Assembly: GCA_002722775.1 (NCBI GenBank)
Contig: PBMU01000004.1
Span: 48,224 to 112,223 of the forward strand
DNA: 64,000 bases
Direction of reading: 5' to 3'
Origin: Rhodospirillaceae bacterium
Lineage (GTDB): Bacteria > Pseudomonadota > Alphaproteobacteria > Thalassobaculales > Thalassobaculaceae
Below the pieces are notes generated by a model, which was not told the origin of the DNA, ran no database searches, and was given only the letters and a program-made list of their open reading frames with translations. The translations under genes were made by a program, and so were the position numbers. Positions 5,415-39,724 of this stretch are shown in pieces; within the stretch, counting starts at the first letter, position 1, and every line of letters starts with the position of its first letter.

Positions 5415-5422
5415 GAACTATT

Positions 5423-9589: not shown

Positions 9590-9593
9590 TATT

Positions 9594-10004: not shown

Positions 10005-10006
10005 TC

Positions 10007-11392: not shown

Positions 11393-11402
11393 GGAGTAAT
11401 GT

Positions 11403-22178: not shown

Positions 22179-22198
22179 AGTGTTATCCTTATGGTGGG

Positions 22199-22534: not shown

Positions 22535-22545
22535 AGCTCTGTCCT

Positions 22546-22866: not shown

Positions 22867-22870
22867 AGTG

Positions 22871-25234: not shown

Positions 25235-25266
25235 TATACATCCGTAGTAATAGTGAATTAGTAGAA

Positions 25267-25292
25267 GGAATAAAGGCACCAATGAAGGTGCC
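25267..25292 (-). terminator. Candidate intrinsic terminator after the 25338 gene
   Basis: On the minus strand: GGCACC-ttcatt-GGTGCC followed by TTTATT. Short 6-bp stem. Confidence 0.4.
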
Positions 25293-25337
25293 CTTAGTAT
25301 TACTAGTAGCTAGGCTACATCAACACAGGCTATGAGA

Positions 25338-25835
25338 TTAATCCCACAGTACCGATTTAGCATCAATGCGGTTGCCTTCACGAATTTCACCAGTGTCTTT
25401 GTTCTTCCACTTAGTGTGTTTGATAATACCAGTCCCGGTAAAGCCAACAATGTTTTCCATTGCTTCTGCTAGTGTGGTCCAGCCCTGTGCTGCTGCTAAC
25501 TCACGCGTCATAGTAGCGAATGCTTTCAGACCCATTTTCTTTTCACCCACAATCATGGATTCTTTGTAGTCTTTCGGCATGTCACCAACAGCTTTACGGT
25601 TTTCTTCCGTATCAGTGTCCAGTTCTACCAGCTCAGTCAGAGTCAGTTCCATTACTACCGCATCAATATCTTCGGAACCAACAGTTTCCAGACCGCATGA
25701 CTTAACAGCAAAGGTAAACATAGCAGTTGGTAGTGGCGCAAAGGACGCGAGGTCATCGACTTCATCGTACCCTAGTGATAGTGCTTCGTCAGTAGTTAAC
25801 AGTTCGAGTTCTTCTTGAGTTTTAAATTCGCTCAT
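25338..25835 (-). CDS. Acidic 165-aa protein next to the Sak4-like ATPase (DUF669-like / ssDNA-binding candidate)
   Basis: AAGGAatttacta-ATG RBS. Codon usage differs from the neighbours (few CTA/AGT/ATA codons). Followed by a hairpin. Function inferred from synteny only. Confidence 0.35.
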   Translation of the reverse strand: MSEFKTQEELELLTTDEALSLGYDEVDDLASFAPLPTAMFTFAVKSCGLETVGSEDIDAVVMELTLTELVELDTDTEENRKAVGDMPKDYKESMIVGEKKMGLKAFATMTRELAAAQGWTTLAEAMENIVGFTGTGIIKHTKWKNKDTGEIREGNRIDAKSVLWD

Positions 25836-25923
25836 TAGTAAATTCCTTACATGAGATTGATATTACAATTGATTAATGGTGTAGTACATCTTTATTCTAG
25901 TAGTACCATCTAGGACTAGCAGT

Positions 25924-26790
25924 CTATTTCCCGTACAGTTTACACATATCACGGGCCATAGTATCCAGAGTAGTAACGTCGATGGTGTGGTTGCCTCTAG
26001 TACCTGCTAGTACTTTGGCGTCACCGGTGGTCGTCGATACTACCATGTGTTTCTTATTACGGATATGGGAGTAGAGCGCGTTGTTAAAGTAGCGGGGTAT
26101 CTTTCTACTAAAGTCATACGTACCGCCACTAGGAACAATCTTACTAGAAGCATCTTCCATTTTACCCATTTGCTCGTGGGAGATAACTACAGTATTATAT
26201 TGTGCGCCCTGCATATAGTCAAGAAACTTCTCAAGGTATCGCCCCTGACTACGCCAGTGTTTGAACTCTTCGAATTCATCCTTACCCATATCCAGTTTAC
26301 GAGTAGCAAGAGCATTAGCACTACTAGCAAGCTGAGTAAAGCTATCCCATACTACTACCCATTCATTAGGGTCCAGACTATTCAGTGTCCACTCGTTGAT
26401 AATACCATTAGTGAACTCACCAGCTTTGATAGCAGGCACTTCCTTATTCAATTCTCTGCACTCTGCGCACGCAGGAGTAATAGCAGGCTTATTCATAAGG
26501 ATACCATGCGCGTCACACATCTGAGCTTTAGTACCATTGGCAAGGAACATAGCACTATTAACAAAGTTATAGTTGTCCTTATTATCATACACCGGCTGCA
26601 CATAGATATTGCGTAACCATGCTGGTGGTAGGTTGGCTAATAGTGACCGGCCATTCTCACCGTCGATGTACAGTACCTTGAACTTAGATGCCAGTGACAG
26701 TGCTAGTGTTGTCTTACCTGTCAGTGAGGCACCATATATAATGGTAGACTGCGCACTAGATTGCTTTGCTACGACTGTGGCCTGTGGCAT
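25924..26790 (-). CDS. Sak4 / AAA_24-like RecA-fold ATPase (recombination), 288 aa
   Basis: Walker A IIYGASLTGKTTLAL followed by LYIDGENG. Walker B-like VVVWDSF. Confidence 0.65.
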   Translation of the reverse strand: MPQATVVAKQSSAQSTIIYGASLTGKTTLALSLASKFKVLYIDGENGRSLLANLPPAWLRNIYVQPVYDNKDNYNFVNSAMFLANGTKAQMCDAHGILMNKPAITPACAECRELNKEVPAIKAGEFTNGIINEWTLNSLDPNEWVVVWDSFTQLASSANALATRKLDMGKDEFEEFKHWRSQGRYLEKFLDYMQGAQYNTVVISHEQMGKMEDASSKIVPSGGTYDFSRKIPRYFNNALYSHIRNKKHMVVSTTTGDAKVLAGTRGNHTIDVTTLDTMARDMCKLYGK

Positions 26791-27038
26791 TATTCAGACT
26801 CCTCTTCGTTACTACCAGTGGGCTCTGCCACGTAGCCTAACTCTGTTAGTACTGCTGCGCACAACAGGATAGCTTTGGCATTTGCTACTATCCATTGAGG
26901 CTTCACATTCCAGCCAGTCTGACGCAACTCACTACTGACGGATAAGTCCAGTAATGCTTGGTAGTCTTCCGCCTCTACAAGAGTAGGGAATTCTTTGCCG
27001 TCACTGGCAGTGTAGTTTATTTTAATCTCAGTAGTCAC
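26790..27038 (-). CDS. Hypothetical acidic protein, 82 aa
   Basis: Start/stop overlaps on both sides (coupled). Confidence 0.55.
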   Translation of the reverse strand: MTTEIKINYTASDGKEFPTLVEAEDYQALLDLSVSSELRQTGWNVKPQWIVANAKAILLCAAVLTELGYVAEPTGSNEEESE

Positions 27039-28087
27039 TATTCGTCTCCTAACATTGTTGTCATAAATAAATCAGCATCACCTACTTCTGACTCTTCACC
27101 AGATTCTATCTGTTCTATCAGTTCATCCTGACGGTCCAGTAGTTGGTCCAGTGTAAAGTGGAAGTCAGGGTTAGTGAGCTTAGTGTAACTCTCTTCGTCA
27201 GTAGTACCATCCACCGGCTTAAAGATACGGGACAGTGCTGCATCGGAATACTGGCAAGCACTATCAATGTACTCACACGGACGGAAGTAAGAGTAGCAGT
27301 GCTGCCCTTGCCGTGGATAACCATAGTGCTCATACAACTTGGCCTTCTCTACCTCTACTACTAAGTCCCGTAACCAGTCAGCACGATGCTTGGTAGTTTT
27401 AACAAATGGCATCGGTACTATGTTCATACTACGGGACTGGAATACCAGATAGAGTACATCGAAACTAGCAGCCTGTCCTTTATTAGCAGCCATCAAGTCA
27501 ATGACAGCGCCGTATCCTAGAGCCTGACTACTATTCTTATAGGTGGCTTCATGGACAGACGACATACCAGTAGTCTTGAGTTCTATTACCATGTAACGTT
27601 GCTTCTCAGGATGGTACAGTACTAGGTCGATGTGACCTTCGAATGTATACCCATCTATCAAATCTATTACAAAGGTAAGCTCGATTGCTGGTACTTCTTT
27701 ACCATCTTGCATTACTCGTGCTACTTCCCATCCATCTAGGTAGCTGTACACGCCAGCTTGGTAGCGCTTGATGAATAAGTCTGTTGCTACTAGCGCAGTC
27801 CAGATAGATTTCTTACTGGCTTGTTCCCCGTCAGTACCAATGTCTTCGATGTCGTGGGTATAAGCCAGCATACACTGTACCATGCACTGCTCGTAAGAGT
27901 AGCCAGCAATAGCAGACTGAATACCCATTGCTACTGCGTGTCCATAGCTGAATGTTACTGACTCACGATTAGCCTTAATAGCGAACTTAGAATCCAGCTC
28001 GAATTTACGAGGGCAATTCTGTAGTGTTAGCTGGCGACTGTAAGACAGACCAGTATGAGTGATGTTGTAGTAGTCGAGTTTAGCCAT
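27038..28087 (-). CDS. PD-(D/E)XK exonuclease with Cas4-like Cys cluster, 349 aa
   Basis: N-terminal LQNCPRKFEL. Core HIDLVLY...MVIELKTT (D...ExK). C-terminal HCYSYFRPCEYIDSAC cysteines. Confidence 0.7.
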   Translation of the reverse strand: MAKLDYYNITHTGLSYSRQLTLQNCPRKFELDSKFAIKANRESVTFSYGHAVAMGIQSAIAGYSYEQCMVQCMLAYTHDIEDIGTDGEQASKKSIWTALVATDLFIKRYQAGVYSYLDGWEVARVMQDGKEVPAIELTFVIDLIDGYTFEGHIDLVLYHPEKQRYMVIELKTTGMSSVHEATYKNSSQALGYGAVIDLMAANKGQAASFDVLYLVFQSRSMNIVPMPFVKTTKHRADWLRDLVVEVEKAKLYEHYGYPRQGQHCYSYFRPCEYIDSACQYSDAALSRIFKPVDGTTDEESYTKLTNPDFHFTLDQLLDRQDELIEQIESGEESEVGDADLFMTTMLGDE

Positions 28088-28089
28088 TA

Positions 28090-28362
28090 CTAGCCCCTTG
28101 CTCGTTTTAGTAAGCGGAGTGGTACTACTTCTTCTCGCGTGTGGTAGAAGTTAGCAGGCTTACCATCAAATTCAGTACCGTGTAATTCAGAACTCTTAGG
28201 ATAGTGCACATGGAATCCTGAAGGAGTAGTAGTAGTAGTAACAGTAGCCTTGTGACACTGGCCACGTTTGAAGATGTCAGATACCACAGGGTCAGGCACT
28301 ACTATACGTACCAGTACTACATCACCTTCTCGCAACATGTAAGCATCGTTAGGTAAATTCAT
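28090..28362 (-). CDS. Hypothetical protein, 90 aa
   Basis: Start moved to ATG 28362 (GGAGAAtacta-ATG, TAATG overlap with the upstream stop). Confidence 0.55.
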   Translation of the reverse strand: MNLPNDAYMLREGDVVLVRIVVPDPVVSDIFKRGQCHKATVTTTTTPSGFHVHYPKSSELHGTEFDGKPANFYHTREEVVPLRLLKRARG

Positions 28363-28610
28363 TAGTATTCTCCAATGGATTGAATGTGACAATGAGGAGT
28401 AGCGCCAAGACTAGCAGTGCATACCTCTTCGTAACGTTCAGCGTGGAAAGTAGTATTATCTTCCACTAAGTCTGGCGCTTCCTTATCTAACTGCTCCAGT
28501 AGTAACTGGTGTGCTATCTCTTTACTGCGTGCTACTGCTACTGCATAGGCACCAATTGGATAGCACCCAGTAAAGCAGATTGCATATACCTTGGGATTAA
28601 TCATTGGCAT
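28362..28610 (-). CDS. Hypothetical protein, 82 aa
   Basis: GAGGAGaatgagta-ATG RBS. Confidence 0.6.
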   Translation of the reverse strand: MPMINPKVYAICFTGCYPIGAYAVAVARSKEIAHQLLLEQLDKEAPDLVEDNTTFHAERYEEVCTASLGATPHCHIQSIGEY

Positions 28611-28636
28611 TACTCATTCTCCTCTCATTAGTAGTC

Positions 28637-29134
28637 TTATCCGAAATCACTCAAGTCCATACTAGCATCAAGAGCCTTACTAGTTGTAGCCTTGGACTTA
28701 GTCTTGGGAGCAGTCTCAACATTAGCAAGCTTGAGCATACCACTCACCAGTATATTGAGCTGGGCATCTGTTAGTATATGCGTCAGCTCAGGGAACTGTT
28801 GAAGATTGCGACGGATAGCAGTACTAAGGCTACGAATCTGTGGAGTATCTTCCACTAGTGCTGCGTCCAACTCCTTCATACTAGCAATGAATGACTCTGC
28901 GTCCAAACCAGTAACATCATGCAATTCGTCAGCGAACTTGTAAGTACCACGCTCCTCTTGCTGCTCTTGGTGTAGCTCCAGCTTGGACTTCTGCTCTGCA
29001 ATACGCAGTGTCATATTATCCAACTGTTTCGGTTTACCAGTGGTATCTACACCATCTTCTTTATCAGTCTTGATATTAGTAGCAGCCTTTGATTTAGCTG
29101 CTCGTAACTTAGCTTGCAGGTCGGCTAGTGCCAT
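28637..29134 (-). CDS. Hypothetical protein, 165 aa, with acidic C-terminal tail ...MDLSDFG
   Basis: Good ORF. C-terminus resembles the tails of the 36299 and 37438 proteins. Confidence 0.6.
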   Translation of the reverse strand: MALADLQAKLRAAKSKAATNIKTDKEDGVDTTGKPKQLDNMTLRIAEQKSKLELHQEQQEERGTYKFADELHDVTGLDAESFIASMKELDAALVEDTPQIRSLSTAIRRNLQQFPELTHILTDAQLNILVSGMLKLANVETAPKTKSKATTSKALDASMDLSDFG

Positions 29135-29412
29135 TAGAAGTCCTCCGCATTAATATCTGAAGAGCCTAAGTCTAGTACGAATGTTAGCTTGTTGCCTTCA
29201 ATAGTACTGGTAAGTTTAGCAAAAGGGTAGCGCACCTTGAATGCATCATCCTCATACTTCTCCTTCTGAACACCCTTTCTAGCAGTACGCATGAAGCGTC
29301 TTACTACTTCTGGGTTCTCACTGTTGGATGGTATGAGACTAGCACGTTTTAATTCCTTTAGTGTCTGCCATACTTCTGCCCATCTACGTCTCTTCTTTAG
29401 AGTTGTTGTCAT
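29134..29412 (-). CDS. Hypothetical basic protein, 92 aa, C-terminus ...DINAEDF
   Basis: GAGGAAacaatcc-ATG RBS. Confidence 0.6.
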   Translation of the reverse strand: MTTTLKKRRRWAEVWQTLKELKRASLIPSNSENPEVVRRFMRTARKGVQKEKYEDDAFKVRYPFAKLTSTIEGNKLTFVLDLGSSDINAEDF

Positions 29413-29692
29413 GGATTGTTTCCTCTAGTAGTGTAAAATCGCCTAATGGTTCACGGGGTTTGCTGAGGCTTACACTGAAAGTACTAGTATCCTCGTCATA
29501 CTTAATTGATAGTACAGTTCTCTCTAACTCTATCCCGAGTACAGATAGCTCTGCCTTCAAATTGTTCAACGCGCGTCGTAGTCCTACTCGCACATTGTTA
29601 TACGCGGTACTAGTTTTAAACTTAATCGTTATATCACTCTCTTCGGTAGTGGTCTTATCCACTAGTAACTGAATTATCTGTGCATATTGCAT
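29384..29692 (-). CDS. Hypothetical protein, 102 aa
   Basis: ORF overlaps the next gene by 29 nt. Confidence 0.55.
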   Translation of the reverse strand: MQYAQIIQLLVDKTTTEESDITIKFKTSTAYNNVRVGLRRALNNLKAELSVLGIELERTVLSIKYDEDTSTFSVSLSKPREPLGDFTLLEETIHDNNSKEET

Positions 29693-30156
29693 AACGACTC
29701 CTTACCTTCTCTATTATCTAAGATACCGTCCCTATAGTCAAGTAAACGTTGAAATATCTTTCGTTGTACTGTGCAAGGTAGCACTCCGAATACTATAGTC
29801 ATGGGGTTCCAGTACTCTCTCATATCAGTAATAGTAGCTGTCACTACCGGACTCAAAGAACCACAACAGCTGGCACAAGTACTTCCATAGGGCATTATAC
29901 TGGCACAACAGTGATGTACATCATGGCACCGTAGACACTGCTGTTGGTAGAATGTGACATACTGGTGGTCACGATGCACACTAGGGGCATAATCGAGTAG
30001 TAGCTTGGCCAATTCATGCTGGCTTCTGTAGTCATGGTCCTTACTACTGACTGGATTACGCTCGAAGTAATAGAGCCACCCTACGAACAGGGCAGCAATA
30101 TTATCTTCCTTCTCAGCACTAAGCTCGTTGGAGTACATGGCTGTTATACCAGTCAC
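29674..30156 (-). CDS. Cys/His-rich protein, 160 aa (possible metal-binding)
   Basis: CLRCHDVHHCCASIMPYGSTCASCCGS. No clear SD. Alternative start at 30138. Confidence 0.45.
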   Translation of the reverse strand: MTGITAMYSNELSAEKEDNIAALFVGWLYYFERNPVSSKDHDYRSQHELAKLLLDYAPSVHRDHQYVTFYQQQCLRCHDVHHCCASIMPYGSTCASCCGSLSPVVTATITDMREYWNPMTIVFGVLPCTVQRKIFQRLLDYRDGILDNREGKESLCNMHR

Positions 30157-30778
30157 TGTGGTGTGCTATTAGTTTCTGCATTAGTAAGCAGTCATAGGTA
30201 GCGGAATGTGCCAGTCCATCCTCTACTACTATTCCTACATTACGACAGGCTTCTATCAGCTTGATACGAGGCTTATCCTTTTCCCATAGTGCTGCGAATA
30301 GTGGCATGATGTCGAGCCAGTAATCACCAATGGGTTGTGATGGTACTTGTATACCAGTCTGCTCTACTGTCTGGTGCCACATCTTTTTGTCGAAGGTACT
30401 CCATTGTACCAGTATGCGGCCTTTGCATAGTAGAGATACTGCCTGCACGTCGTCGGCACTCATGGCCTTGGCTCCATGCATACGTAGTGCTGTACGGTCC
30501 AATCCATGTACTGCTAATGCGTGCGGATTAATTTGTACTGTTGGTAGGAAGTACTGCTGGGTTACAGTAACACCGTCAGCCAGTCGTAGTATTGCCAGCT
30601 CAATGATTTGGTCAGACTTGCCCACACCAGTAGTCTCAGTATCCACCAGTAATACATTCAGTACTTGCTCCAGTATATAGCAGACTGCGCCTACCTTTGC
30701 CAGTCGTGTCTCAATATCAGTACCTTTCATCTGCTTAATATTGTAGTCCAACCCATCTTGGGTAATATCAGTAATCAT
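30119..30778 (-). CDS. DEDDh (DnaQ-like) 3'-5' exonuclease, 219 aa
   Basis: LLVDTETTGV (Exo I), IELAIL, HSATYDCLLM (Exo III, H-x4-D). Confidence 0.75.
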   Translation of the reverse strand: MITDITQDGLDYNIKQMKGTDIETRLAKVGAVCYILEQVLNVLLVDTETTGVGKSDQIIELAILRLADGVTVTQQYFLPTVQINPHALAVHGLDRTALRMHGAKAMSADDVQAVSLLCKGRILVQWSTFDKKMWHQTVEQTGIQVPSQPIGDYWLDIMPLFAALWEKDKPRIKLIEACRNVGIVVEDGLAHSATYDCLLMQKLIAHHSDWYNSHVLQRA

Positions 30779-31230
30779 TACTTGTTTCCTTTTTTGTTGG
30801 TTGTTACCTTAGCGCTACCTGCTACCTTAGCGGTTTTGCTTGCGTCGTACTGTGCTAGTGTTACCTGTACTATCCCATGCACAGTCTTAATGGTAATAAG
30901 CTGGCTCAAGTGCAAGCCATAGTTAGCACCATTCTGCACTGGAAGTCGTCGCTCTGCTGATAGGTGGGAACAGAACTTATCCAAGTTTAGGGGTGTTACT
31001 GCTAGTGGCTCCTTCTGCTGGCCAATGGCCTGTTCCATCTTAGGGATAGCAAACAAGTACCGCAGTACTAGCTCTTCCAGTTGTGCCTTAGTGAGCTTGC
31101 CTGCCTGTACTAATCCGGATAGTACTTCCAAGTCACCAAATAGTACTTCTCGTTGTTCTTCCAGTGTCAGGTCTGTTAGTACTTCTGCAGGGTCCTTGCG
31201 TTGTACTTCATTGTCATTACTAGTAGTCAT
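30778..31230 (-). CDS. Hypothetical protein, 150 aa
   Basis: Start set at ATG 31230 (GGAGGctata-ATG). The track start 31242 is a TTG inside the SD. Confidence 0.55.
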   Translation of the reverse strand: MTTSNDNEVQRKDPAEVLTDLTLEEQREVLFGDLEVLSGLVQAGKLTKAQLEELVLRYLFAIPKMEQAIGQQKEPLAVTPLNLDKFCSHLSAERRLPVQNGANYGLHLSQLITIKTVHGIVQVTLAQYDASKTAKVAGSAKVTTNKKGNK

Positions 31231-33490
31231 TATAGCCTCCAAGTTCTTTCTGTAGTTTCTTTGCGTCTAAGTAGCCGCTGTCTCGTAGTGATACAAAGCG
31301 GCGATGAATATTACTATCGGGGTCTTTCGCAGCCTTAATATAGGCTAGTGCTTTCTTGCGGAAGTGATTAAGTTTCTCTGCTAGTGTGTCTCCTTTTATC
31401 TTCTGATTAACAAGGCATTTGTGTAGCATACTATACTTGTTATCAATGTATTTACCAGTATAGTTACCACTGTACATAACCTCTAAGTGGTGACGCGCAC
31501 GAGTAACACCAGTATAGAATGTCTCTCGTTGTGCTGCCACGCTGTGACTATGATGCAGGATTAGCAGTACACTAGGGAATTCAGAACCCTGTGACTTGTG
31601 TACTGTTAGTGCATACATAGGTAGTAGTGTTCCGATAGCATTGGTGGATAACTTCACTTCCATTCCATCACCAACGGGAGTTAGTACTACAGTATGACTA
31701 GCTTGGTTACTAGTCTCTTCATCTTCCGTCGCCGCATACTCCTGTGCCATTAGTTCTTCCAGCTCCATATCATCTACTTCTGCTTCATGCTGTTCATCAC
31801 TAATACCAAACACCTCTTCACGATGGCCCTTCTTAGCTTGGCCCCATCTAGTAAGATACGGGGATGCTTCTAGTGGCTTAGGTCCACGGTACTTATCATT
31901 CTTGTAGATGTCAGTAATATGGTATGGTAGTTTGTTATGTAGTACTCTATCGCCTATAGACCAGTATGTCTTACCAAAGCGGGTTATTACTTCGAATACT
32001 GGTAGGTTATCCCTGTCACTAATACCCTGCATAATGTACTTATTCAGTTCGATGGTGCCAAAGGCTTTATTGAATGGTATTAGTACCTGTGTTTCCTCTG
32101 GGTCAAATCGGTAATCCATTATACGCTTCTGGAGCAGTAGGCCAGTATTCTTAAGTGCTACTTCTGGCGTCCAGTTCTTAACATAGCGTGTGAACTTGAT
32201 ACTATCCTCGCCCTCAGTTCTACTGAGTTTCTGTGCTTCATCATCCTTAATGGGCTTGCCTGTTAGTATCCGATGAGCCAATTGAGTAATGATACCAACG
32301 TTACGATATACTTCTGTTAGTTCTATTACTGGTAACTCTAGCTGTTTGAATCCTAGTATACCATCATTGAATGGTGGCGGTAACTGGTTCAAGTCGCCGA
32401 GGAATATCCACTGTGTATTACTATCCATTGGTAGTGCAGATTCTAGACACTCATACAAGTCCAGTAGTACACTACCCGCTTCCTCTACCACTATCAGGTC
32501 GAATGCAGGTAGTATCTGTCCACCAGCTTCTCGCCATGCAGTACCATAAGTAGGCGCGAATATCTGACTAGTCCGCACACCAGTAACCTGAGTATCATCT
32601 TCTATCTCTGCTTCTACTGGCACGAATTCTAGTAGATTATGTAGAGTAGTAGCATTACATTTCAGCTCTTCCTGTAGTGCCTCAGTAATGTTACGAATAG
32701 CTTGATTGGTGAATGATACTATTGCTACTCGTAGTTTACCTTCCTTCACAAACTTCTTGGTATATTCACCACTCTCGAACTTACCTAGTCTACCACTATC
32801 GAGGAGTGCTTTTAGTATGCACTTCACAGTAGTAGTCTTACCAGAACCTGCAGCACCTATTAGTACGAATGACTCACCTGCTACTGCTAGTTGTACTGCT
32901 GCTTTCTGCTCAGTATTCAAGTGTTCGAATGTTACTTGGTCTTTATTGAGCTGTGGTGCTACCTTAGCGGTTGTGTCTACTGGTGCTGGTGGCGGCGCTG
33001 GTGCTACCTTAGCGGTAGTAGTTGTGCTAGGTCCAGACTTATCACTGCCATTACGAGTAGGACTAGTAAACACTGGGCGACGAACACTAGTACTCGGCCT
33101 ATCTTGCGTAGTCTGCGTTTGCGCTGGTACTGTTTTCGCTGGCGTAGTGCTGCCAATCTTAGAGAAGCGTGCTCTGAGACGTTGTGCCGCGTCACTAGCA
33201 GTAGACTTATTAAGCTTAGTAGCAGTCTCATTGGTAGACTCCTTTGTTATGCCATTATTAAGCAGGTTAGTAGAAACGCTAGTGTTGCTGCTAGGCTTAT
33301 TGTCACTATCAGCAGTGTTGGTGATAGCTTCCACATCTCTGCTATTGTTAGCCATAGGTTGTGCATTAGTAGTCTCCTTAGACTCAGTTGCTGGTGGTGT
33401 TGGTGCCAGTAGTGATGCACCAGCTTTAGCCTCTTGTAGTGCTAGTGCTTTCTTTCTCTTTAGTTCTGCTATACGTTTCGCAAGACTCAT
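31220..33490 (-). CDS. SF1 RecD/Dda-like DNA helicase with ~190-aa low-complexity basic N-terminus, 756 aa
   Basis: Walker A LIGAAGSGKTTTV, Walker B DLIVVEEAGS, and C-terminal ALTVHKSQGSEFPSVLLIL typical of RecD-like helicases. Confidence 0.85.
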   Translation of the reverse strand: MSLAKRIAELKRKKALALQEAKAGASLLAPTPPATESKETTNAQPMANNSRDVEAITNTADSDNKPSSNTSVSTNLLNNGITKESTNETATKLNKSTASDAAQRLRARFSKIGSTTPAKTVPAQTQTTQDRPSTSVRRPVFTSPTRNGSDKSGPSTTTTAKVAPAPPPAPVDTTAKVAPQLNKDQVTFEHLNTEQKAAVQLAVAGESFVLIGAAGSGKTTTVKCILKALLDSGRLGKFESGEYTKKFVKEGKLRVAIVSFTNQAIRNITEALQEELKCNATTLHNLLEFVPVEAEIEDDTQVTGVRTSQIFAPTYGTAWREAGGQILPAFDLIVVEEAGSVLLDLYECLESALPMDSNTQWIFLGDLNQLPPPFNDGILGFKQLELPVIELTEVYRNVGIITQLAHRILTGKPIKDDEAQKLSRTEGEDSIKFTRYVKNWTPEVALKNTGLLLQKRIMDYRFDPEETQVLIPFNKAFGTIELNKYIMQGISDRDNLPVFEVITRFGKTYWSIGDRVLHNKLPYHITDIYKNDKYRGPKPLEASPYLTRWGQAKKGHREEVFGISDEQHEAEVDDMELEELMAQEYAATEDEETSNQASHTVVLTPVGDGMEVKLSTNAIGTLLPMYALTVHKSQGSEFPSVLLILHHSHSVAAQRETFYTGVTRARHHLEVMYSGNYTGKYIDNKYSMLHKCLVNQKIKGDTLAEKLNHFRKKALAYIKAAKDPDSNIHRRFVSLRDSGYLDAKKLQKELGGYNDY

Positions 33491-34639: not shown

Positions 34640-34846
34640 TTATTCACAATCTTGGTTATTGGTAGAGTTATTGGTAGAGTTAATGGCAGTATTGCTAGTA
34701 ATAGTGGAGCCAGTATAGATAGTGTTAGAGCTGGTGGCGATAGAGGCGATAGAGGCCCGACGACGCCTACGGCAGTTATCAAAATACTGCTGCCTTCTGC
34801 GCTGGTTACTATTACTCATACGCTTTGGTCTATTGGAAGTATTCAT
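34640..34846 (-). CDS. Arg-rich low-complexity small protein, 68 aa
   Basis: NQRRRQQYFDNCRRRRR. Contains in-frame tandem DNA repeats (12-nt x2, 9-nt x2). Coding status uncertain. Confidence 0.4.
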   Translation of the reverse strand: MNTSNRPKRMSNSNQRRRQQYFDNCRRRRRASIASIATSSNTIYTGSTITSNTAINSTNNSTNNQDCE

Positions 34847-34860
34847 GTTTGTCGTGGCTC

Positions 34861-35256
34861 CTATAGTGACTCTATCATTTTATTAGTATGATTACGTATT
34901 ACTTCTGTTAGTGCTTCATTAAGTCCGATTACTATTCTCTTATCAGTAACAGTATTTACTAGATGAAACCTACGAGTACCATTATTAAAGCGCGGTACTA
35001 TATCTACTAGTTGCCATTCAGTGTCAGCAGTGAACATGCATAGTGTTCCGTCATGTGGAATACCTTGCATAGATGTTAGTTCTAGTGTGCCTTTAATGTC
35101 ATAGTGAGCATAGTACTTATTAATATAAGTAGTAACAGATTCAAAGTGTAGTGGAAATGTAACCTTAGAAGTAGCAGTATTCATAGCAGTAATAATCCTA
35201 GTAGTAATAGTCGTAATAGTGACAATAGTAGCTGGTAGCCAGTAAGCAAGAATCAT
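34861..35256 (-). CDS. First gene of the minus arm, 131 aa (start uncertain: 35256 or 35184)
   Basis: The track start 35379 lies upstream of a near-consensus promoter (35296..35324) and has no SD. First in-frame ATG after the promoter is 35256. It is preceded by a 3-codon mini-ORF (ATG 35264, AAGGA SD) that ends in an ATGA overlap. Confidence 0.45.
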   Translation of the reverse strand: MILAYWLPATIVTITTITTRIITAMNTATSKVTFPLHFESVTTYINKYYAHYDIKGTLELTSMQGIPHDGTLCMFTADTEWQLVDIVPRFNNGTRRFHLVNTVTDKRIVIGLNEALTEVIRNHTNKMIESL

Positions 35257-35295
35257 GCCAACATGCGTAATCCTTTGGACTTCCGACCAACTAGC

Positions 35296-35324
35296 ATTAT
35301 CCCATATATAGCTAGACAGGTCAA
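35296..35324 (-). promoter_or_regulatory. Near-consensus sigma70 promoter for the minus (replication) arm
   Basis: Minus strand reads TTGACC - 17 nt (ending TGG, an extended -10 TGn) - GATAAT, with the AT-rich tract cttatattattata immediately upstream. Confidence 0.7.
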
Positions 35325-35341
35325 TATAATAATATAAGCGT

Positions 35342-35369
35342 AGGGATGCTACCTGAGGCACACTAGCAA
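35342..35369. repeat. Left arm of a 28-bp perfect inverted repeat
   Basis: agggatgctacctgaggcacactagcaa is the exact reverse complement of 35873..35900. Confidence 0.95.
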
Positions 35370-35590
35370 TACCAGTCATGCGAGGATACGCAAGGTACTA
35401 TGAGGCACTAGAGGAATCGGGGTACTCCCATACCATACATCATAGCACCCTACATCATAGCACTGGCTAGTACCATACTACCACCAGCTAGTACTATCGG
35501 AATGCATACCTACCACCAGCAAACCCTAGCAGTAGCACAAGATAGCGCAATAGCAGTAAAACTATGTATCTTCTATGTTGTATATTATAG

Positions 35591-35636
35591 ACCCCCCTAT
35601 TCAAATTTTATTTCTTTTTTCCTATACCCCCCTATT
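35591..35636 (+). repeat. ACCCCCCTATT direct repeat pair bracketing a 24-bp AT-rich core
   Basis: Copies at 35591..35601 and 35626..35636, flanking caaattttatttcttttttcctat. Confidence 0.85.
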
Positions 35637-35665
35637 ACTATACCAGTACGGTACTATACCAGTAC
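35637..35665 (+). repeat. 13-nt direct repeat ACTATACCAGTAC x2
   Basis: Copies at 35637..35649 and 35653..35665. Confidence 0.85.
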
Positions 35666-35872
35666 ACAGTAGGTAGCTAGTGACTACCGGAATGCATGGC
35701 TATTGGATGAATGGGCGAGTAGTAGGCATAGTGGCATAGTGGCATGATGTGGTAATAGTGGGCATAGGTAGTAGCATAGTAGTAGTATATGGATATATGT
35801 GGGATGGTATGTAGGTAGGCAGGGGGGTGCCCAATTTCCTTGCGTGCATCGCGTGATTGACGTTACTTCTAG

Positions 35873-35900
35873 TTGCTAGTGTGCCTCAGGTAGCATCCCT
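35873..35900. repeat. Right arm of the 28-bp perfect inverted repeat
   Basis: ttgctagtgtgcctcaggtagcatccct. The arms are separated by 503 bp (35370..35872). Confidence 0.95.
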
Positions 35901-36082
35901 GCCAGCATACCAGTACACACCACCAGCATCTCACCAGCAAGCACGCCACCAGCACGCCACCAGCACTCCCTGTAGAACGTCTGAGCATCATTATGACTAT
36001 AGATAGTGGTAGTATGGTATAGGGTAGTAGTAGATAGAGCCACCAGCACCCGCATAGAGCGTCCTAGTAGCATCATTGGCAG

Positions 36083-36138
36083 TAGCCACCAGCATATAGC
36101 ATAGTGGTAGTAGCCACCAGCATATAGCATAGTGGTAG
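36083..36138 (+). repeat. Perfect 28-bp tandem duplication
   Basis: tagccaccagcatatagcatagtggtag x2. Each unit carries one Chi complement and one ATAGTGG motif. Confidence 0.95.
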
Positions 36139-36150
36139 TAGGTCAGGACT

Positions 36151-36226
36151 AGTGGTAGTGGTAGTGGTAGTGGTAGTGGTAGTGGTAGTGGTAGTGGTAG
36201 TGGTAGTGTGAGGTAGTGGTAGTGGC
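36151..36226 (+). repeat. Hexanucleotide microsatellite (AGTGGT)n
   Basis: Nine perfect units over 36151..36204, then degenerate units (agtgtg aggt AGTGGT AGTGGC). Confidence 0.95.
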
Positions 36227-36250
36227 AGAGTAGCCACCAGCAGGCAGGCA

Positions 36251-36278
36251 CAAAAAAGCCCCACACTAGGCAGGGCTT
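36251..36278 (-). terminator. Intrinsic terminator of the 36299..36985 gene
   Basis: Minus strand: AAGCCC-tgcctagtgtg-GGGCTT followed by TTTTG, about 20 nt after the stop codon. Confidence 0.55.
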
Positions 36279-36298
36279 GTAGTAGGACTGGCGACCTG

Positions 36299-36985
36299 TT
36301 ACATGAAGTCCGACTCATCCAGTTCATCAGCGCTGGCTTCTGGATTCAGTGTTTTCTGGATGTTGTCTGCCCATAGCTCTAGCACTGGCAAGTGCTGCTC
36401 AATCGCTGCATCGTCTAGAGTAGTGGCGAACTCATTCAAGATGTCGCCCATACGCTCAACAACTTGAGTTTTAACAGTAGCCAGTGACGCGACAGTGAAC
36501 TTAGCAGTAGCCTTAGCAATGGTAAAGGCTTTGGCTTTCTCTGCCATGCTAGTGCTAGCAAGGTAGCTTTCCAGAACTGCGATAGTAGCAGCCAACATCT
36601 CTTTGGTGACTTTGATAGAGCCGCCGCGCTTGGCCAGACCTGCTTCCAGTACTGCCAGACCATCAGTGTAGTCAGTGATACCTACTGCGACATTTTCTTT
36701 GTTTGCTGCTTCGATGTGAGCATTAACCAAATCCTGTACAGTAGCGACTTGTTTTTCTGACAATCCAGAGTCAGCCAGCAGTGCCACCATATCAACTGTA
36801 ATCAGTGTGGCATTGAACGGCTTGCGCTTGCTGCCCTTCTCTGCATCCACTTCTACGTCATTGGTAGTAATGGTGCCAGACGCTAGTGCCTTCTGTAGTT
36901 TCTCGAAAGCATCGCTGCCTGCTTTGGCAAAGTTAAAGTTATAGACAGTGGTGAAAGGTTTTGTTGCAACAGTTTGATTAGACAT
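36299..36985 (-). CDS. Stand-alone Ala-rich acidic protein, 228 aa, C-terminus ...ADELDESDFM
   Basis: Start set at MSNQ (AAGGAtgactact-ATG). The track N-terminal extension has no SD. Has its own promoter candidate and terminator. Function unknown. Confidence 0.7.
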   Translation of the reverse strand: MSNQTVATKPFTTVYNFNFAKAGSDAFEKLQKALASGTITTNDVEVDAEKGSKRKPFNATLITVDMVALLADSGLSEKQVATVQDLVNAHIEAANKENVAVGITDYTDGLAVLEAGLAKRGGSIKVTKEMLAATIAVLESYLASTSMAEKAKAFTIAKATAKFTVASLATVKTQVVERMGDILNEFATTLDDAAIEQHLPVLELWADNIQKTLNPEASADELDESDFM

Positions 36986-37074
36986 AGTAGTCATCCTTAT
37001 AAGTAAATTGTACCTAGCATTATTGCTAGTGCCTTGAGCGGCAGGTGTGGCGCTGTGTTGTGCCACTGGTAAAC

Positions 37075-37103: not shown

Positions 37104-37114
37104 GTACTTTGCAC
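37098..37114. promoter_or_regulatory. Operator-like palindrome GTGCAA-N5-TTGCAC
   Basis: 6-bp perfect arms with a 5-bp spacer, overlapping the candidate -35. Confidence 0.3.
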
Positions 37115-37359: not shown

Positions 37360-37388
37360 TTGACCCGCCACCGCCGCCGCCCTATAAT
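37360..37388 (+). promoter_or_regulatory. Near-consensus sigma70 promoter for the plus (virion) arm
   Basis: TTGACC - 17 nt (cgccaccgccgccgccc) - TATAAT, about 50 nt upstream of the GAGGAG RBS and GTG start at 37438. Confidence 0.7.
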
Positions 37389-37437: not shown

Positions 37438-37977
37438 GTGGACCGTAATACTAAGATAGTAGTAGAGCTGCTTTCCAAGTCCAGCCTGCGCCCAGTAGAT
37501 ATAGCAGATATGTTTGATGTTAGTGAGTCTGCCATTGCTAATATTGCATCACAGTACTCTACTGAGATTGCTAATGCTAAGGCTACTAAATCTGTCACTG
37601 ATATGGCTATGGATGCACGACTGGAGAATCTGGAAGCTACACTACTGAATCAGATTGAGGCCAAGGCACCCTTTGAGACGGATTTGCGAGTACTAGCAGG
37701 ACTGTACAAAGTAATCAATGGTGCTACTCGTCGTGTAGAGAAACAACAAGGACCTGCTACTGCTACTGCCAGCATAGTACTGAATCAACGCTTTGTGCAG
37801 AATAATATTACATTCTCCAAAGATAGTGCTGGCAGGGTAGTGCAGGTCGCCGATAATAAGCTACAGACTGCTAGTGCTGACCATGTACGTGAAATGGCAT
37901 CACAGCTATTACTGGAAGCGGATACAACAACTACTGTTACCCCTGATGAGGAGATTGACGAAAGTGATTTCAACTAA
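37438..37977 (+). CDS. Small terminase subunit candidate, 179 aa, C-terminus ...DEEIDESDFN
   Basis: GTG start with GAGGAG 6 nt upstream. N-terminal HTH-like segment (RPVDIADMFDVSESAIANIASQY). First gene of the arm, two genes upstream of TerL. Confidence 0.45.
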   Translation: MDRNTKIVVELLSKSSLRPVDIADMFDVSESAIANIASQYSTEIANAKATKSVTDMAMDARLENLEATLLNQIEAKAPFETDLRVLAGLYKVINGATRRVEKQQGPATATASIVLNQRFVQNNITFSKDSAGRVVQVADNKLQTASADHVREMASQLLLEADTTTTVTPDEEIDESDFN

Positions 37978-38158: not shown

Positions 38159-39724
38159 ATGCAAAACCTAGTAGAACAGTATTCTAATGCTGAAAGAGTG
38201 GTAACAGTACATTCTCAAGAGATAATCGAGCAGATGAAAATCGACTTGAATACTTTTGCTAATGTACTGTTGCCCGAAGAATTTACTGCTGACTTCTCAA
38301 ATGAACACGTACTAATGTGGACATTAATGATAGAGTCAGTAGAGAAGGATTACATAGATGAATCTATCTTTGATAAGTTTGCACTAGGCTTACCACGGGG
38401 CCATGCTAAGACTACACTACTCAAACTACTAGTAGTATACATCATACTATTCACCAAACGCCGATTCGTCCTAGTAATGTGCAGCACTGCTCGCAAGGCG
38501 CAGGCATTTGTAGAAGACGTTATACTGCTACTGGATAGTCCCAACGTAATAGCACTATTTGGACAGTGGGATGCAGACGCCCTTAAGAGTAATGCTGAGA
38601 TTCGCAAGTTCCAGTTCTGTGGCCGCCGCATCATACTCAAGCCTAGTGGTACTGGCGGTTCTGTTCGTGGTATCAGTGAGGACTTCCAGCGCCCAGACGT
38701 CATGATACTAGATGACATACAGGAGAAGGAAGACGCCGAATCTGAAGAACTAGCAGAGAAGTTACTAGACTGGTTCCTGTCTACACTACTGAAGGCCCGT
38801 AATCTGCGGCGCTGCTCAGTGATATATCTAGGTAATATGTATCGTGACTTAGAGATTGGACGTACTGGTAGTGGTATCTATGCCTGTATACTGCGTAACT
38901 TGGAGAAGAATCCAGAATGGACTAGTATGATAGTAGGTGCCATACTAGCCAATGGTAAGGCACTGTGGGAAGCAGTAGTTAGTAAGAAGTCACTACTATC
39001 AGACTTGAATCAGGATACTAAGCTAGGCAAAGAGGACATATTCTTCGCAGAGTCTATGAATGACCCTAGTGTTAAGACTAGTATGTACTGGAATCCTAGT
39101 AAGATACCAGATGTAGCCTATACTCCCTATGATATAGTAATAGGTAAGTATCTAGTAATAGACCCGTCACTAGGTAAGAAGAAGAGTGATGACCAGACAG
39201 TGTGTGAGTACCACGTCTATGACGAGACTGGTCCAGTAATGGTAGAGGCCCGAGTAATACAGAAGTCTGCTCCTCAACTAGTAAAGGAAGTACTACTATG
39301 GGCCATGACTAAGCGTATACCAGTAATAGCAGTAGAGTCTGTGGCATACCAAGGGACACTAGTACAATGGATAGAGCACTTCACCTATGAGCTTGGTATT
39401 AAAGGTGTGGATGTAATACCAGTAACTCCCAAGGGATTTAGTAAGACATCACGGATACTAGCCTACATGAAGTCACTAATGACAGGATTCAGTAAGGCAT
39501 TACCAGCACCATTAGCATTAGTATCCCATCAGGCCTCCTTCTACAAGCCTACTAGAACTGACAATGTGGACGATTTACTAGATAATGGTGCGTACGGAGA
39601 GCAAGTATTCCTAGATCACGCCAATGAGTATCTACTACCATTAGAGTCAGACTTTGAAGAAGTGGAAGACCCTAATAGGCCTAAGCATCCAGCAATACTA
39701 CCAGACGTTCGCGTTCCAGATTAG
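38159..39724 (+). CDS. Terminase large subunit, 521 aa
   Basis: Walker A-like LPRGHAKTTLL. Walker B DVMILDDIQE. C-terminal nuclease-type acidic residues (LVIDPSLGKKKSDD, IAVESVAYQ). Confidence 0.8.
   Translation: MQNLVEQYSNAERVVTVHSQEIIEQMKIDLNTFANVLLPEEFTADFSNEHVLMWTLMIESVEKDYIDESIFDKFALGLPRGHAKTTLLKLLVVYIILFTKRRFVLVMCSTARKAQAFVEDVILLLDSPNVIALFGQWDADALKSNAEIRKFQFCGRRIILKPSGTGGSVRGISEDFQRPDVMILDDIQEKEDAESEELAEKLLDWFLSTLLKARNLRRCSVIYLGNMYRDLEIGRTGSGIYACILRNLEKNPEWTSMIVGAILANGKALWEAVVSKKSLLSDLNQDTKLGKEDIFFAESMNDPSVKTSMYWNPSKIPDVAYTPYDIVIGKYLVIDPSLGKKKSDDQTVCEYHVYDETGPVMVEARVIQKSAPQLVKEVLLWAMTKRIPVIAVESVAYQGTLVQWIEHFTYELGIKGVDVIPVTPKGFSKTSRILAYMKSLMTGFSKALPAPLALVSHQASFYKPTRTDNVDDLLDNGAYGEQVFLDHANEYLLPLESDFEEVEDPNRPKHPAILPDVRVPD

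What the first reader, a model, noticed from the sequence alone, without database searches (positions are those of the whole stretch)
34730..35520. Chi orientation flips between 34737 and 35481, predicting a double-strand end or terminus there
A hand scan of the 45.6-kb unit found plus-strand GCTGGTGG at 4392, 11261, 16738, 26621, 32985, 33390 and 34730. It found CCACCAGC only at 21886, 23820 and 32520 outside the array. About 0.7 sites per orientation are expected at random, so Chi is enriched overall. The three sites nearest the control region on the low-coordinate side (34730, 33390, 32985) face an enzyme moving toward lower coordinates. The nine-site array faces an enzyme moving toward higher coordinates. 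A DNA end created between 34737 and 35481 would therefore meet active Chi within 1 kb in both directions. That is the pattern expected around a physical genome terminus or packaging cut, and the two gene arms also diverge in this region.
Basis: partly seen in the sequence, partly recalled or inferred. Interest (0 to 1): 0.6.

Follow-up and report, generated by a model that had tools for sequence, protein, structure and literature searches.

The report
Opposed Chi sites flank phage control region
An uncultured 45.6-kb tailed phage carries nine exact copies of the E. coli-type recombination signal Chi in 760 bp of non-coding DNA, with oppositely pointing copies just beside them; this fits a DNA end forming there, but the end could not be mapped.

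Summary
A scripted count reproduces every coordinate. Plus-strand GCTGGTGG is at 4392, 11261, 16738, 26621, 32985, 33390 and 34730. Minus-strand sites are at 21886, 23820 and 32520, plus nine in 35481-36241. The orientation flips between 34737 and 35481.

Codon-preserving shuffles expect 3.4 dispersed sites, not 0.7, against 10 seen (0/2000).

The array is non-coding, has nine exact copies and one near-miss, and sits in differing flanks. It is absent from 85 relatives' loci.

The phage is a distant relative of the PaMx41/119X podoviruses. It sits as a 2.6-copy concatemer contig, mis-binned into a 54% GC MAG.

Supporting it, the 119X and PaMx41 records are opened in the positionally equivalent non-coding stretch, and that genus is reported as terminally redundant. 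By that analogy the end would lie near 35.55-35.65 kb, inside the array, not in 34737-35481.

End-clustered, oriented Chi is already published for P1 and LLS-type lambdoid phages. This is a new, extreme variant in a different, likely lytic phage family (no integrase sought).

The parts
35920..36241 (-). Seven exact Chi octamers (CCACCAGC on the + strand) at 35920, 35946, 35957, 36040, 36086, 36114 and 36234. Active for RecBCD travelling toward higher coordinates. A (GGTAGT)n microsatellite at about 36140-36230 lies among them.
   Evidence: The flanks differ between copies except for one 28-bp tandem duplication (36077-36132). Eight of the nine array copies are followed by A. The only ORFs across the stretch translate to low-complexity nonsense.
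35481..35520 (-). Two further exact Chi octamers (35481, 35513) in the same orientation. They lie left of the AT-rich centre and inside the segment bracketed by the 28-bp inverted repeat.
34730..34737 (+). Nearest oppositely oriented Chi, active for RecBCD travelling toward lower coordinates. It lies in a small minus-strand ORF.
32985..33397 (+). Two + strand Chi sites (32985, 33390), antisense within the helicase gene, read as Pro-Pro-Ala codons.
   Evidence: Antisense + sites in the minus arm: 4 observed against 0.84 expected (0/2000).
26621..26628 (+). A + strand Chi, antisense within the Sak4-like gene.
4392..16745 (+). Three + strand Chi sites (4392, 11261, 16738) in structural genes of the plus arm. 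They repeat at 50037, 56906 and 62383 in the second copy of the unit.
21886..32527 (-). Three dispersed - strand Chi sites (21886, 23820, 32520), sense-strand Ala-Gly-Gly codons in minus-arm genes. Not significantly enriched.
   Evidence: 3 against 1.1 expected, p = 0.09.
35257..36298 (.). Non-coding control region that holds the array. It has an AT-rich centre with C6 tracts (about 35560-35640) flanked by short repeats in inverted orientation. The same architecture occurs in relatives, each with its own phage-specific repeats. This is the candidate site of the genome end, packaging site or origin.
35342..35369 (.). Left arm of a perfect 28-bp inverted repeat.
   Evidence: I1, 100% complementary, 503 nt between the arms.
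35873..35900 (.). Right arm of the perfect 28-bp inverted repeat.
35296..35324 (-). Sigma-70-like promoter (TTGACC-17-TGnGATAAT) pointing into the minus (early/replication) arm.
   Evidence: This is a consensus match only.
34861..35256 (-). First gene of the minus arm. The long ORF runs from 35379, but the promoter-like site lies inside it. The start is more likely at 35256 or 35184.
36256..36278 (-). Intrinsic terminator ending the minus-strand 228-aa gene, immediately right of the array.
36299..36985 (-). Conserved 228-aa protein of unknown function with an acidic C-terminal tail. Homologues occupy the same position in relatives L010, L018 and L021.
   Evidence: AlphaFold2 model has pLDDT 79. 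No fold match in the PDB or BFVD.
37360..37388 (+). Sigma-70-like promoter (11/12 match) pointing into the plus (packaging/structural) arm.
37438..37977 (+). Small-terminase candidate, assigned by position and size only.
   Evidence: BLASTP to the PaMx41 small terminase is not significant.
38159..39724 (+). Large terminase.
   Evidence: phrog_38, E = 3.7e-44; 34-38% identity to PaMx41 and Aeromonas phage P5.
25924..28087 (-). The phage's own recombination genes: a Sak4-like annealing protein (25924-26790) and a Cas4/PD-(D/E)XK-type exonuclease (27038-28087).
31220..33490 (-). Dda/RecD-like SF1 helicase.

Best explanation
The nine octamers are genuine Chi sites under selection in a phage whose unidentified host has an E. 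coli-type RecBCD. They form a non-coding Chi cassette on one side of the phage's control region. Ordinary in-gene Chi sites of the opposite orientation are concentrated on the other side.

A double-strand end arises in or at the edge of this region, between about 35.3 and 36.3 kb. That end is either the physical terminus of a terminally redundant genome or the first terminase cut. RecBCD loading on either resulting end reaches correctly oriented Chi within about 0.1-0.9 kb.

At roughly 30-40% recognition per site (established knowledge of E. coli RecBCD), only 1-8% of enzymes would pass seven to nine sites unrecognised. Chi recognition switches RecBCD to loading RecA on the 3' strand. The end is then fed into recombination with another copy or a terminal repeat, giving circles or concatemers, rather than being lost.

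Shown: the sites, their orientation, their non-randomness, the non-coding setting, the lineage specificity and the positional equivalence to where relatives' records are opened. Inferred: that the host reads this octamer, that an end forms here, and the recombination outcome.
For: - Counts and orientation are exact.
- The array has 9 exact copies and 1 one-mismatch copy, whereas the whole unit has 19 exact and 65 one-mismatch copies. The flanks differ, so the octamer itself is what is conserved.
- No credible ORF covers the array.
- Dispersed sites exceed a codon-preserving null: 10 against 3.4, 0/2000. The excess is in one orientation (7 against 2.3, p = 0.001) and includes 4 antisense sites against 0.84 expected.
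- Three of the seven + sites lie within 2.5 kb of the array (p = 0.005).
- The same + bias is seen in relatives L010 (5:1) and Aeromonas phage P5 (7:1 after flipping). Pooled with this phage it is 19:5, p = 0.007.
- The 119X and PaMx41 records open within 1 bp of each other in the AT-rich centre of the positionally equivalent non-coding stretch. The metagenomic contig L174 starts with a similar sequence.
- A Jamesmcgillvirus phage is reported with terminally redundant ends (PMC13348215).
- Published precedents exist. Chi is dense toward the ends of P1 and active from either end (bioRxiv 10.1101/2021.07.08.451572). LLS-type lambdoids have terminally clustered, oriented Chi (PMC12315714). In lambdoids Chi is concentrated between the replication genes and the terminase (PMC3784561).
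Against:
- The host is unknown. The MAG that holds the contig shows no Chi enrichment and has opposite GATC and CTAG biases.
- If the end lies at the AT-rich centre, as in the PaMx41 and 119X records, Chi sites 35481 and 35513 would sit on the wrong side in the inactive orientation, unless they lie inside a terminal repeat.
- A - site at 32520 interrupts the low-side pattern. The orientation of this phage's dispersed sites alone is not significant (7:3, p = 0.34).
- The phage encodes its own Sak4-like recombinase and an exonuclease. LLS-type Chi-rich phages lack such genes.
- Flanking genes are not detectably homologous to those of PaMx41 or 119X, so the synteny is positional only.
- Whether the 119X and PaMx41 record starts are measured ends could not be checked, because the paper is not held.
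- Subramaniam and Smith argue that Chi alone does not protect DNA in cells; RecA and a homologous partner are needed.
Confidence: 0.5

Rival explanations
1. The sites are real Chi, but there is no fixed end here. The genome is packaged by headful or from ends elsewhere. The array is a once-per-unit checkpoint that stops RecBCD running in the + direction along rolling-circle tails or broken concatemers, before it destroys the packaging and structural arm. The dispersed + sites handle the other direction. The flip next to the array is then incidental.
For: - The contig is a 2.62-unit head-to-tail concatemer whose ends (unit positions 43068 and 25608) are unrelated to the array.
- Complete contigs of the closest relative are opened at arbitrary positions.
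- In the family the + bias of dispersed sites is genome-wide rather than confined to one end.
- Correctly oriented Chi is known to stabilise rolling-circle multimers (Dabert et al. 1992, as discussed in bioRxiv 10.1101/2021.07.08.451572).
Against: - Three of the seven + sites crowd against the array (p = 0.005).
- The array sits exactly in the region where 119X and PaMx41 records are opened.
- Near-complete contigs of relatives end 1-4 kb upstream of the large terminase gene more often than chance (7 of 23, p = 0.003), although at non-homologous spots.
Confidence: 0.25
2. CCACCAGC(A) is the binding site of a phage protein, such as small-terminase recognition repeats, origin iterons or an operator array. 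It coincides with Chi by chance, and RecBCD plays no part.
For: - Relatives carry arrays of phage-specific 6-9-bp repeats in the same region (GGGAGC, GGTATCC, AAAACC, CAAGG), so repeated protein-binding sites are expected here.
- The array lies just upstream of the terminase genes.
- The host is unknown, and the MAG shows no Chi enrichment.
Against: - The relatives' arrays occur as inverted sets either side of the AT-rich centre. This phage has its own such inverted elements, while all nine Chi point one way.
- The chance that an arbitrary repeated octamer equals Chi or its complement is about 2 in 65,536.
- The 9:1 ratio of exact to near-miss copies is not iteron-like.
- The same octamer is independently enriched inside genes on both arms beyond codon usage.
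Confidence: 0.12
3. The array is a neutral by-product of slippage and duplication in a repeat-prone non-coding stretch and has no function.
For: - A (GGTAGT)n microsatellite and a 28-bp tandem duplication lie within the array.
- The array is absent from every relative sampled, so it is young.
Against: - At least seven of the nine copies have different flanks, so most are not simple duplicates.
- Nine exact copies survive with only one decayed copy.
- All copies share one orientation, and the genome is independently enriched for the same octamer.
Confidence: 0.08

Closest known systems
Terminally clustered, oriented Chi sites in lambdoid phages without a Rec module (phage LLS; Zheng, Casjens, Davidson, Amundsen and Smith 2025, PMC12315714)
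   Same: Both are strongly enriched in the E. coli Chi octamer. In both, most dispersed sites are in the orientation active for RecBCD entering the end on the side away from the terminase genes. In both, sites are concentrated next to the predicted packaging site, just before the terminase genes. TGCTGGTG is also frequent in both.
   Different: LLS has 20 active sites spread over kilobases, mostly in genes. Here, 9 sites lie in 760 bp of non-coding DNA and point the other way, toward the terminase side. LLS lacks recombination genes, whereas this phage has a Sak4-like protein and an exonuclease. LLS is a temperate siphovirus with cos ends; this is a PaMx41-like podovirus with no integrase sought, and its end type is unmapped.
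Chi distribution in phage P1 and relatives (Subramaniam and Smith, bioRxiv 10.1101/2021.07.08.451572)
   Same: [quoted passage not shown] The proposed role is recombination of terminal redundancy after injection.
   Different: P1 has 50 sites on both strands over tens of kilobases, with ends spread by headful packaging. It is not a tight one-orientation cassette. The dependence of P1 on RecA and RecBCD has been shown experimentally; nothing has been tested here.
Chi concentration between replication genes and terminase in lambdoid phages and prophages (Bobay, Touchon and Rocha 2013, PMC3784561)
   Same: The genomic position is the same: between the replication/recombination genes and the terminase. 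In that study, phages with a recombinase but no RecBCD inhibitor concentrate Chi toward cos.
   Different: That result is a statistical trend across many lambdoid genomes, not a discrete array. A different phage family is involved here.
Fredfastierviridae, genus Jamesmcgillvirus (Pseudomonas phages PaMx41, 119X, PaP2, Shea)
   Same: Genome size is similar (43-46 kb). Both have two arms. The large terminase, SU10-type portal and major capsid protein are 34% identical. The order is RecD-like helicase, non-coding control region, terminase. The control region has an AT-rich centre with G5/C5 tracts flanked by inverted short repeats.
   Different: These phages have no E. coli-type Chi at all, only 5 copies of the Pseudomonas motif GCTGGCGC without a pattern, and normal GATC content (183 sites). 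The genes flanking the control region are not detectably homologous.
Engineered tandem Chi on linear or rolling-circle DNA (Dabert et al. 1992; Kuzminov et al. 1994; Chi oligonucleotides used to stabilise linear DNA in E. coli extracts); cited from my own knowledge
   Same: Several closely spaced, correctly oriented Chi sites near an end raise the survival of linear DNA in recBCD+ cells or extracts.
   Different: Those are laboratory constructs. Here a comparable cassette is found in a natural phage genome.

Membership tests
E. coli-type Chi site (RecBCD recombination hotspot) | Exact octamer 5'-GCTGGTGG-3' | tested here: met
   There are 19 exact sites per 45.6-kb unit, 9 of them in the array.
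E. coli-type Chi site (RecBCD recombination hotspot) | Over-representation beyond base composition and codon usage | tested here: met
   Outside the array: 10 against 2.5-4.0 (Markov orders 2-5) and against 3.4 (codon shuffles, 0/2000). In the array: 9 exact copies against 1 near-miss.
E. coli-type Chi site (RecBCD recombination hotspot) | The host encodes a RecBCD that recognises this octamer | not testable with these tools
   The host is unknown. The other contigs of the MAG have Chi at 1.3-1.5 times expectation, close to control motifs, and opposite GATC and CTAG biases, so the MAG is probably not the host.
E. coli-type Chi site (RecBCD recombination hotspot) | Orientation-dependent hotspot or nuclease-attenuating activity | not testable with these tools
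   This needs genetic or biochemical assays.
Phage genomes with end-clustered, oriented Chi (LLS-type, P1-type) | Sites concentrated toward a mapped genome end | tested here: inconclusive
   Three of the seven + sites lie within 2.5 kb of the array (p = 0.005), but a Kolmogorov-Smirnov test against a uniform distribution gives p = 0.21. The end itself is not mapped.
Phage genomes with end-clustered, oriented Chi (LLS-type, P1-type) | Orientation such that RecBCD entering the free end meets active Chi | tested here: inconclusive
   This holds for any end between 34738 and 35480. It holds for only 7 of the 9 array sites if the end is at the AT-rich centre. Dispersed sites are 7:3 alone (p = 0.34) and 19:5 pooled with two relatives (p = 0.007).
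Phage genomes with end-clustered, oriented Chi (LLS-type, P1-type) | No phage-encoded recombination module (the LLS class) | tested here: not met
   A Sak4-like annealing protein and a Cas4-type exonuclease are present. No RecBCD inhibitor was recognised, but such proteins are small and diverse.
Fixed genome termini (direct terminal repeats) in the control region | Read-start pile-ups or doubled coverage at the termini | not testable with these tools
The records behind the relatives' loci are not held.
Fixed genome termini (direct terminal repeats) in the control region | Positional equivalence to termini of characterised relatives | tested here: inconclusive
   The 119X and PaMx41 records open within 1 bp of each other in the equivalent AT-rich centre. 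Shea is reported as terminally redundant (PMC13348215). The PaMx41 paper could not be read, other records of the genus are opened at gene boundaries, and no terminal repeat is included in the records.
Fredfastierviridae | Shared core genes and genome organisation | tested here: met
   Large terminase 34%, major capsid protein 34%, portal of the SU10 type, DNA polymerase I, primase and RecD-like helicase are shared, with the same two-arm layout. Identity is low, so this is a related lineage; family-level membership by ICTV criteria was not computed.

The most novel reading that the evidence does not exclude
The 760-bp stretch is a self-contained, recently acquired, cis-acting anti-RecBCD cassette. 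It is a natural equivalent of engineered tandem-Chi DNA. A likely lytic podovirus would use it at the end of its injected or packaged genome to disarm the few RecBCD molecules in the cell, start RecA-dependent concatemer formation, and incidentally shorten the RecBCD degradation track that feeds CRISPR spacer acquisition. It would work alongside, rather than instead of, the phage's own Sak4 recombinase. The octamer would also serve as a sequence-only predictor of the host clade for an uncultured phage.
Probability: 0.25. Interest if true: 0.6.

Novelty: new variant of a known kind. Interest (0 to 1): 0.45.

Why it matters
Chi-rich phage genomes with end-clustered, oriented sites have so far been described for temperate P1-like and lambdoid phages. 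They are read as a substitute for missing phage recombination genes. Three things would be new here.

- A PaMx41-like podovirus that has its own recombinase packs nine Chi sites into a non-coding cassette, opposed by in-gene sites across about 750 bp. This suggests that Chi can be recruited as a compact cis element at a genome end, not only accumulated gene by gene.
- The arrangement gives a sharp, cheap prediction, to within about 1 kb, of where virion DNA ends or is first cut. It also predicts that the unknown host is an enteric-type gammaproteobacterium.
- A 1-kb fragment could be tested directly in E. coli K-12 for orientation-dependent, RecBCD- and RecA-dependent effects.

If the ends map elsewhere, the array would instead be a natural once-per-unit RecBCD checkpoint on concatemers, which would also be worth knowing.

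Tried and rejected
- **Records behind relatives' loci.** Searching them for terminal repeats failed because they are not held.
- **Near-identical DNA.** None was found in phages. The 28-bp inverted-repeat arm has no exact match in viral or metagenome contigs. A distant blastn of the non-coding region hit only terminator-like hairpins.
- **Close relatives in IMG/VR** using the large terminase: none.
- **Relatives in named genomes for host hints.** Only remote hits in unrelated MAGs.
- **16S in the MAG.** None found.
- **Pseudomonas-type Chi (GCTGGCGC) at PaMx41 ends** as a parallel test: 5 sites with no pattern.
- **Terminal repeats inside the PaMx41 and 119X records.** None. The Neko and 20Aug470 records are opened at gene boundaries and are uninformative.
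- **The PaMx41 genome paper and the P1 genome paper.** Not held. The statement that PaMx41 is linear and terminally redundant rests on my memory of its abstract.
- **Contig-end statistics.** Seven of 23 near-complete relatives end 1-4 kb upstream of the large terminase gene (p = 0.003), but at non-homologous places, so this is weak evidence.
- **The 228-aa neighbouring protein.** No PHROG or Pfam hit. AlphaFold2 gave a fair model, but there was no fold match.
- **Large terminase against solved structures.** No sequence hit.
- **Rfam and tRNA scans.** Nothing found.
- **Rejected: the array as a coding Gly-rich repeat.** This is the case for 116 of 119 triple-Chi clusters in IMG/VR, but here no frame is open across the array and the translations are nonsense.
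- **Rejected: the MAG as host.** Its k-mer biases are opposite to the phage's.
- **First codon-shuffle runs.** They timed out or included spurious ORFs over the array. One search is the clean version.
Full report
**What the window is.** The window is positions 2579-66578 of a 119,476-bp contig. That contig consists of 2.62 head-to-tail copies of a 45,645-bp unit, with six mismatches between copies. The contig is binned in a 2.57-Mb, 70%-complete MAG of 54% GC, whereas the unit itself is 45% GC. Its word biases are opposite to those of the other contigs:
- GATC is at 0.01 of expectation in the phage and 1.85 in the MAG.
- CTAG is at 1.65 in the phage and 0.51 in the MAG.
- No short sequence is shared between the two.

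The contig is therefore most likely a mis-binned phage, and the host is unknown.

Gene content identifies a podovirus distantly related to Aeromonas phage P5, Pseudomonas phages PaMx41, 119X and PaP2 (Fredfastierviridae) and Polaromonas phage Tiera. Large terminase and major capsid protein are 34-45% identical, and the portal and capsid are of the SU10 type. A plus arm runs from 37438, wrapping to about 18750, and carries the terminase and structural genes. A minus arm runs from about 36985 down to about 19000. It carries a RecD/Dda-like helicase, a DnaQ-like exonuclease, a Cas4-type exonuclease, a Sak4-like annealing protein, DNA polymerase I and a primase.

**Check of the observation.** There are 22 sites in the window against 2.0 +/- 1.2 in dinucleotide shuffles. 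Three of them are second copies created by the wrap. Per unit there are seven + sites, three dispersed - sites, and nine - sites in 35481-36241. The orientation change between 34737 and 35481 is real.

The genome has a very uneven word usage, rich in TAG, GTA, ACT and CAG. Markov models of order 2-5 expect 2.5-4.0 sites outside the array. Shuffling synonymous codons within 45 genes expects 3.4. Ten are seen, and 0 of 2000 shuffles reach that.

The excess is in the + orientation: 7 against 2.3, p = 0.001. It includes four sites that lie antisense in minus-arm genes, against 0.84 expected. The three - sites are not significant (p = 0.09). The gene arms diverge at 36986-37437, not at the flip.

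**The array itself.**
- It lies in about 1 kb of DNA with no credible gene. The overlapping short ORFs translate to low-complexity nonsense.
- This DNA sits between a leftward sigma-70-like promoter (35324-35296) and the terminator (36278-36256) of a conserved minus-strand 228-aa gene.
- Nine copies are exact and only one differs by a single base. The unit as a whole has 19 exact and 65 one-mismatch copies.
- Apart from one 28-bp tandem duplication, the flanks differ between copies. The octamer is therefore what is kept. On the + strand it is followed by A in 8 of 9 copies.
- All nine point the same way, although two lie left and seven lie right of the AT-rich centre of the region.

**Comparison with relatives.** I collected about 85 loci (948 kb) around the large terminase of relatives with 32-63% identity. 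Those that span the equivalent stretch (L010, L018, L021, PaMx41, 119X) share its architecture. Each has an AT-rich centre with G or C tracts, flanked on both sides by arrays of a short phage-specific repeat in inverted orientation: AAAACC/GGTTTT, GGGAGC/GCTCCC, GATACC/GGTATC and CAAGG/CCTTG.

This phage has its own inverted elements, including a perfect 28-bp inverted repeat at 35342-35369 and 35873-35900. The Chi copies are additional to these and are not inverted.

None of the relatives has a Chi array. All 948 kb together hold only 43 Chi sites. The array is thus a lineage-specific addition to a conserved control region.

Two relatives are Chi-enriched. L010 has 5 + and 1 - site in 21.6 kb. 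Aeromonas phage P5 has 7 and 1 once turned to the same gene orientation. Both have the same + bias, and pooled with this phage the ratio is 19:5, p = 0.007.

A scan of IMG/VR for three Chi within short gaps returned at least 119 loci. In 116 of them the cluster lies in an open frame (Gly-rich repeats), and the other three are also in genes. A non-coding array is therefore unusual.

Only indirect evidence is available.

For an end in this region:
- The independently deposited records of 119X and PaMx41 are opened within 1 bp of each other (...CCCCCTTAT|ATAAGTG...) in the AT-rich centre of the positionally equivalent non-coding stretch. That stretch lies between the helicase-side genes and a terminator-ended minus-strand gene upstream of the terminase.
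- One metagenomic contig (L174, 43,489 bp) begins with a similar sequence.
- A phage of the same genus is reported by PhageTerm to have terminally redundant ends (PMC13348215). From memory of its abstract, PaMx41 was characterised as linear and terminally redundant; the paper is not held.
- Three of the seven + sites lie within 2.5 kb of the array (p = 0.005).
- Near-complete contigs of relatives end 1-4 kb upstream of the large terminase gene in 7 of 23 cases (p = 0.003). They do so at non-homologous spots, so repeats breaking the assemblies is an equally good reason.

Against, or limiting:
- The flanking genes are not detectably homologous to those of PaMx41 or 119X.
- The records contain no terminal repeat.
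- Other records of the genus are opened at gene boundaries.
- Complete contigs of the closest relative are opened at arbitrary places.
- The concatemer contig ends at unit positions 43068 and 25608.

If the analogy holds, the end lies near 35.55-35.65 kb. Chi sites 35481 and 35513 would then be on the far side in the inactive orientation, unless a terminal repeat covers them.

**Mechanism.** The orientation rule is that RecBCD must approach 5'-GCTGGTGG-3' from its 3' side (restated in PMC12315714). With 30-40% recognition per site (established knowledge), 92-99% of enzymes entering on the array side would respond within 0.8 kb.

Subramaniam and Smith (bioRxiv 10.1101/2021.07.08.451572) caution that Chi alone does not protect DNA in cells. 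RecA and a homologous partner are needed. The likely outcome is therefore Chi-stimulated strand invasion into another genome copy or a terminal repeat, giving circles or concatemers. This is what they propose for P1.

The dispersed + bias and its crowding just before the terminase side match the LLS pattern, in which the end left free by terminase is the entry point (PMC12315714). They also match the lambdoid trend found by Bobay et al. (PMC3784561).

Unlike LLS, this phage has its own Sak4-like recombinase and an exonuclease. Chi use here would add to phage recombination rather than replace it.

**Rivals.**
- The same Chi function without a fixed end here, acting as a once-per-unit checkpoint on rolling-circle tails (0.25).
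- A phage-protein binding site that merely coincides with Chi (0.12). This is disfavoured by the single orientation, the exactness of the copies and the independent in-gene enrichment.
- Neutral repeat expansion (0.08). This is disfavoured by the different flanks.

**Verdict.** The principle is known (P1, LLS). The compact non-coding, one-orientation cassette opposed by in-gene sites, in a recombinase-encoding, likely lytic podovirus, is a new variant. Interest is moderate, at 0.45.

Noticed in passing
window 1-45645 (one GATC at 39614): GATC is almost absent: 1 site against about 175 expected. The same holds in Aeromonas phage P5 (3 sites) and in many metagenomic relatives (L010, L018, L021, L022, L159, L181, L189 and others), but not in PaMx41 (183 sites) or Tiera (154). 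GATC avoidance is therefore patchy within the family and probably tracks the host.
   Followed up: partly
window 1-45645: Word usage is very uneven. The commonest octamers are TAGCAGTA, AGTAATAG and TAGTAGCA, on both strands. CTAG is 1.65 times expectation, and A and T runs are strongly depleted (AAAA 0.23). Simple base-frequency expectations are therefore unreliable in this genome.
   Followed up: partly
contig C4 (window = C4:2579-66578): The contig is a 2.62-copy head-to-tail concatemer of the 45,645-bp unit, in a MAG with opposite GC and k-mer biases. It is probably a long-read assembly of concatemeric or circularly read phage DNA that was mis-binned.
   Followed up: partly
window 43169-43197 (major capsid gene): Four of the six differences between concatemer copies are A-to-C changes within 29 bp, present in only one copy. 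This is either a local assembly or basecalling error or a polymorphic patch.
   Followed up: no
window 35342-35369 and 35873-35900: A perfect 28-bp inverted repeat brackets 503 bp that contain the AT-rich centre and two of the Chi sites. PaMx41 and 119X have a weaker 20-nt inverted pair around their record junction. Its function is unknown; it could be a symmetric protein-binding site, an origin element or a packaging element.
   Followed up: partly
window 35560-35640; L010 about 6760-6830; L018 about 7330-7380; L021 about 7380-7440; PaMx41 record 25-60: A conserved central element recurs across otherwise unalignable control regions of the family. It consists of a G or C tract, then T(C/T)AAATTT followed by a T run, then another G or C tract.
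   Followed up: no
window 36299-36985 (-): A conserved 228-aa protein with an acidic C-terminal tail lies next to the array. Homologues are in the same place in relatives. The AlphaFold2 model (pLDDT 79) has a small beta-sheet N-terminal part and a helical bundle. It has no match in the PDB or BFVD and no PHROG or Pfam hit.
   Followed up: yes
window 36140-36230: A (GGTAGT)n microsatellite of about 15 units lies inside the Chi array.
   Followed up: no
loci L027-L145 (IMG/VR): Tight clusters of three or more Chi octamers are common in viral contigs but almost always lie inside ORFs, as GCT-GGT-GG(N) Ala-Gly-Gly repeats. Raw Chi-cluster scans are therefore dominated by coding repeats.
   Followed up: yes
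window 37360-37388 (+) and 35324-35296 (-): Two near-consensus sigma-70-like promoters head the two arms, and no phage RNA polymerase was recognised. This suggests host-polymerase transcription throughout.
   Followed up: no
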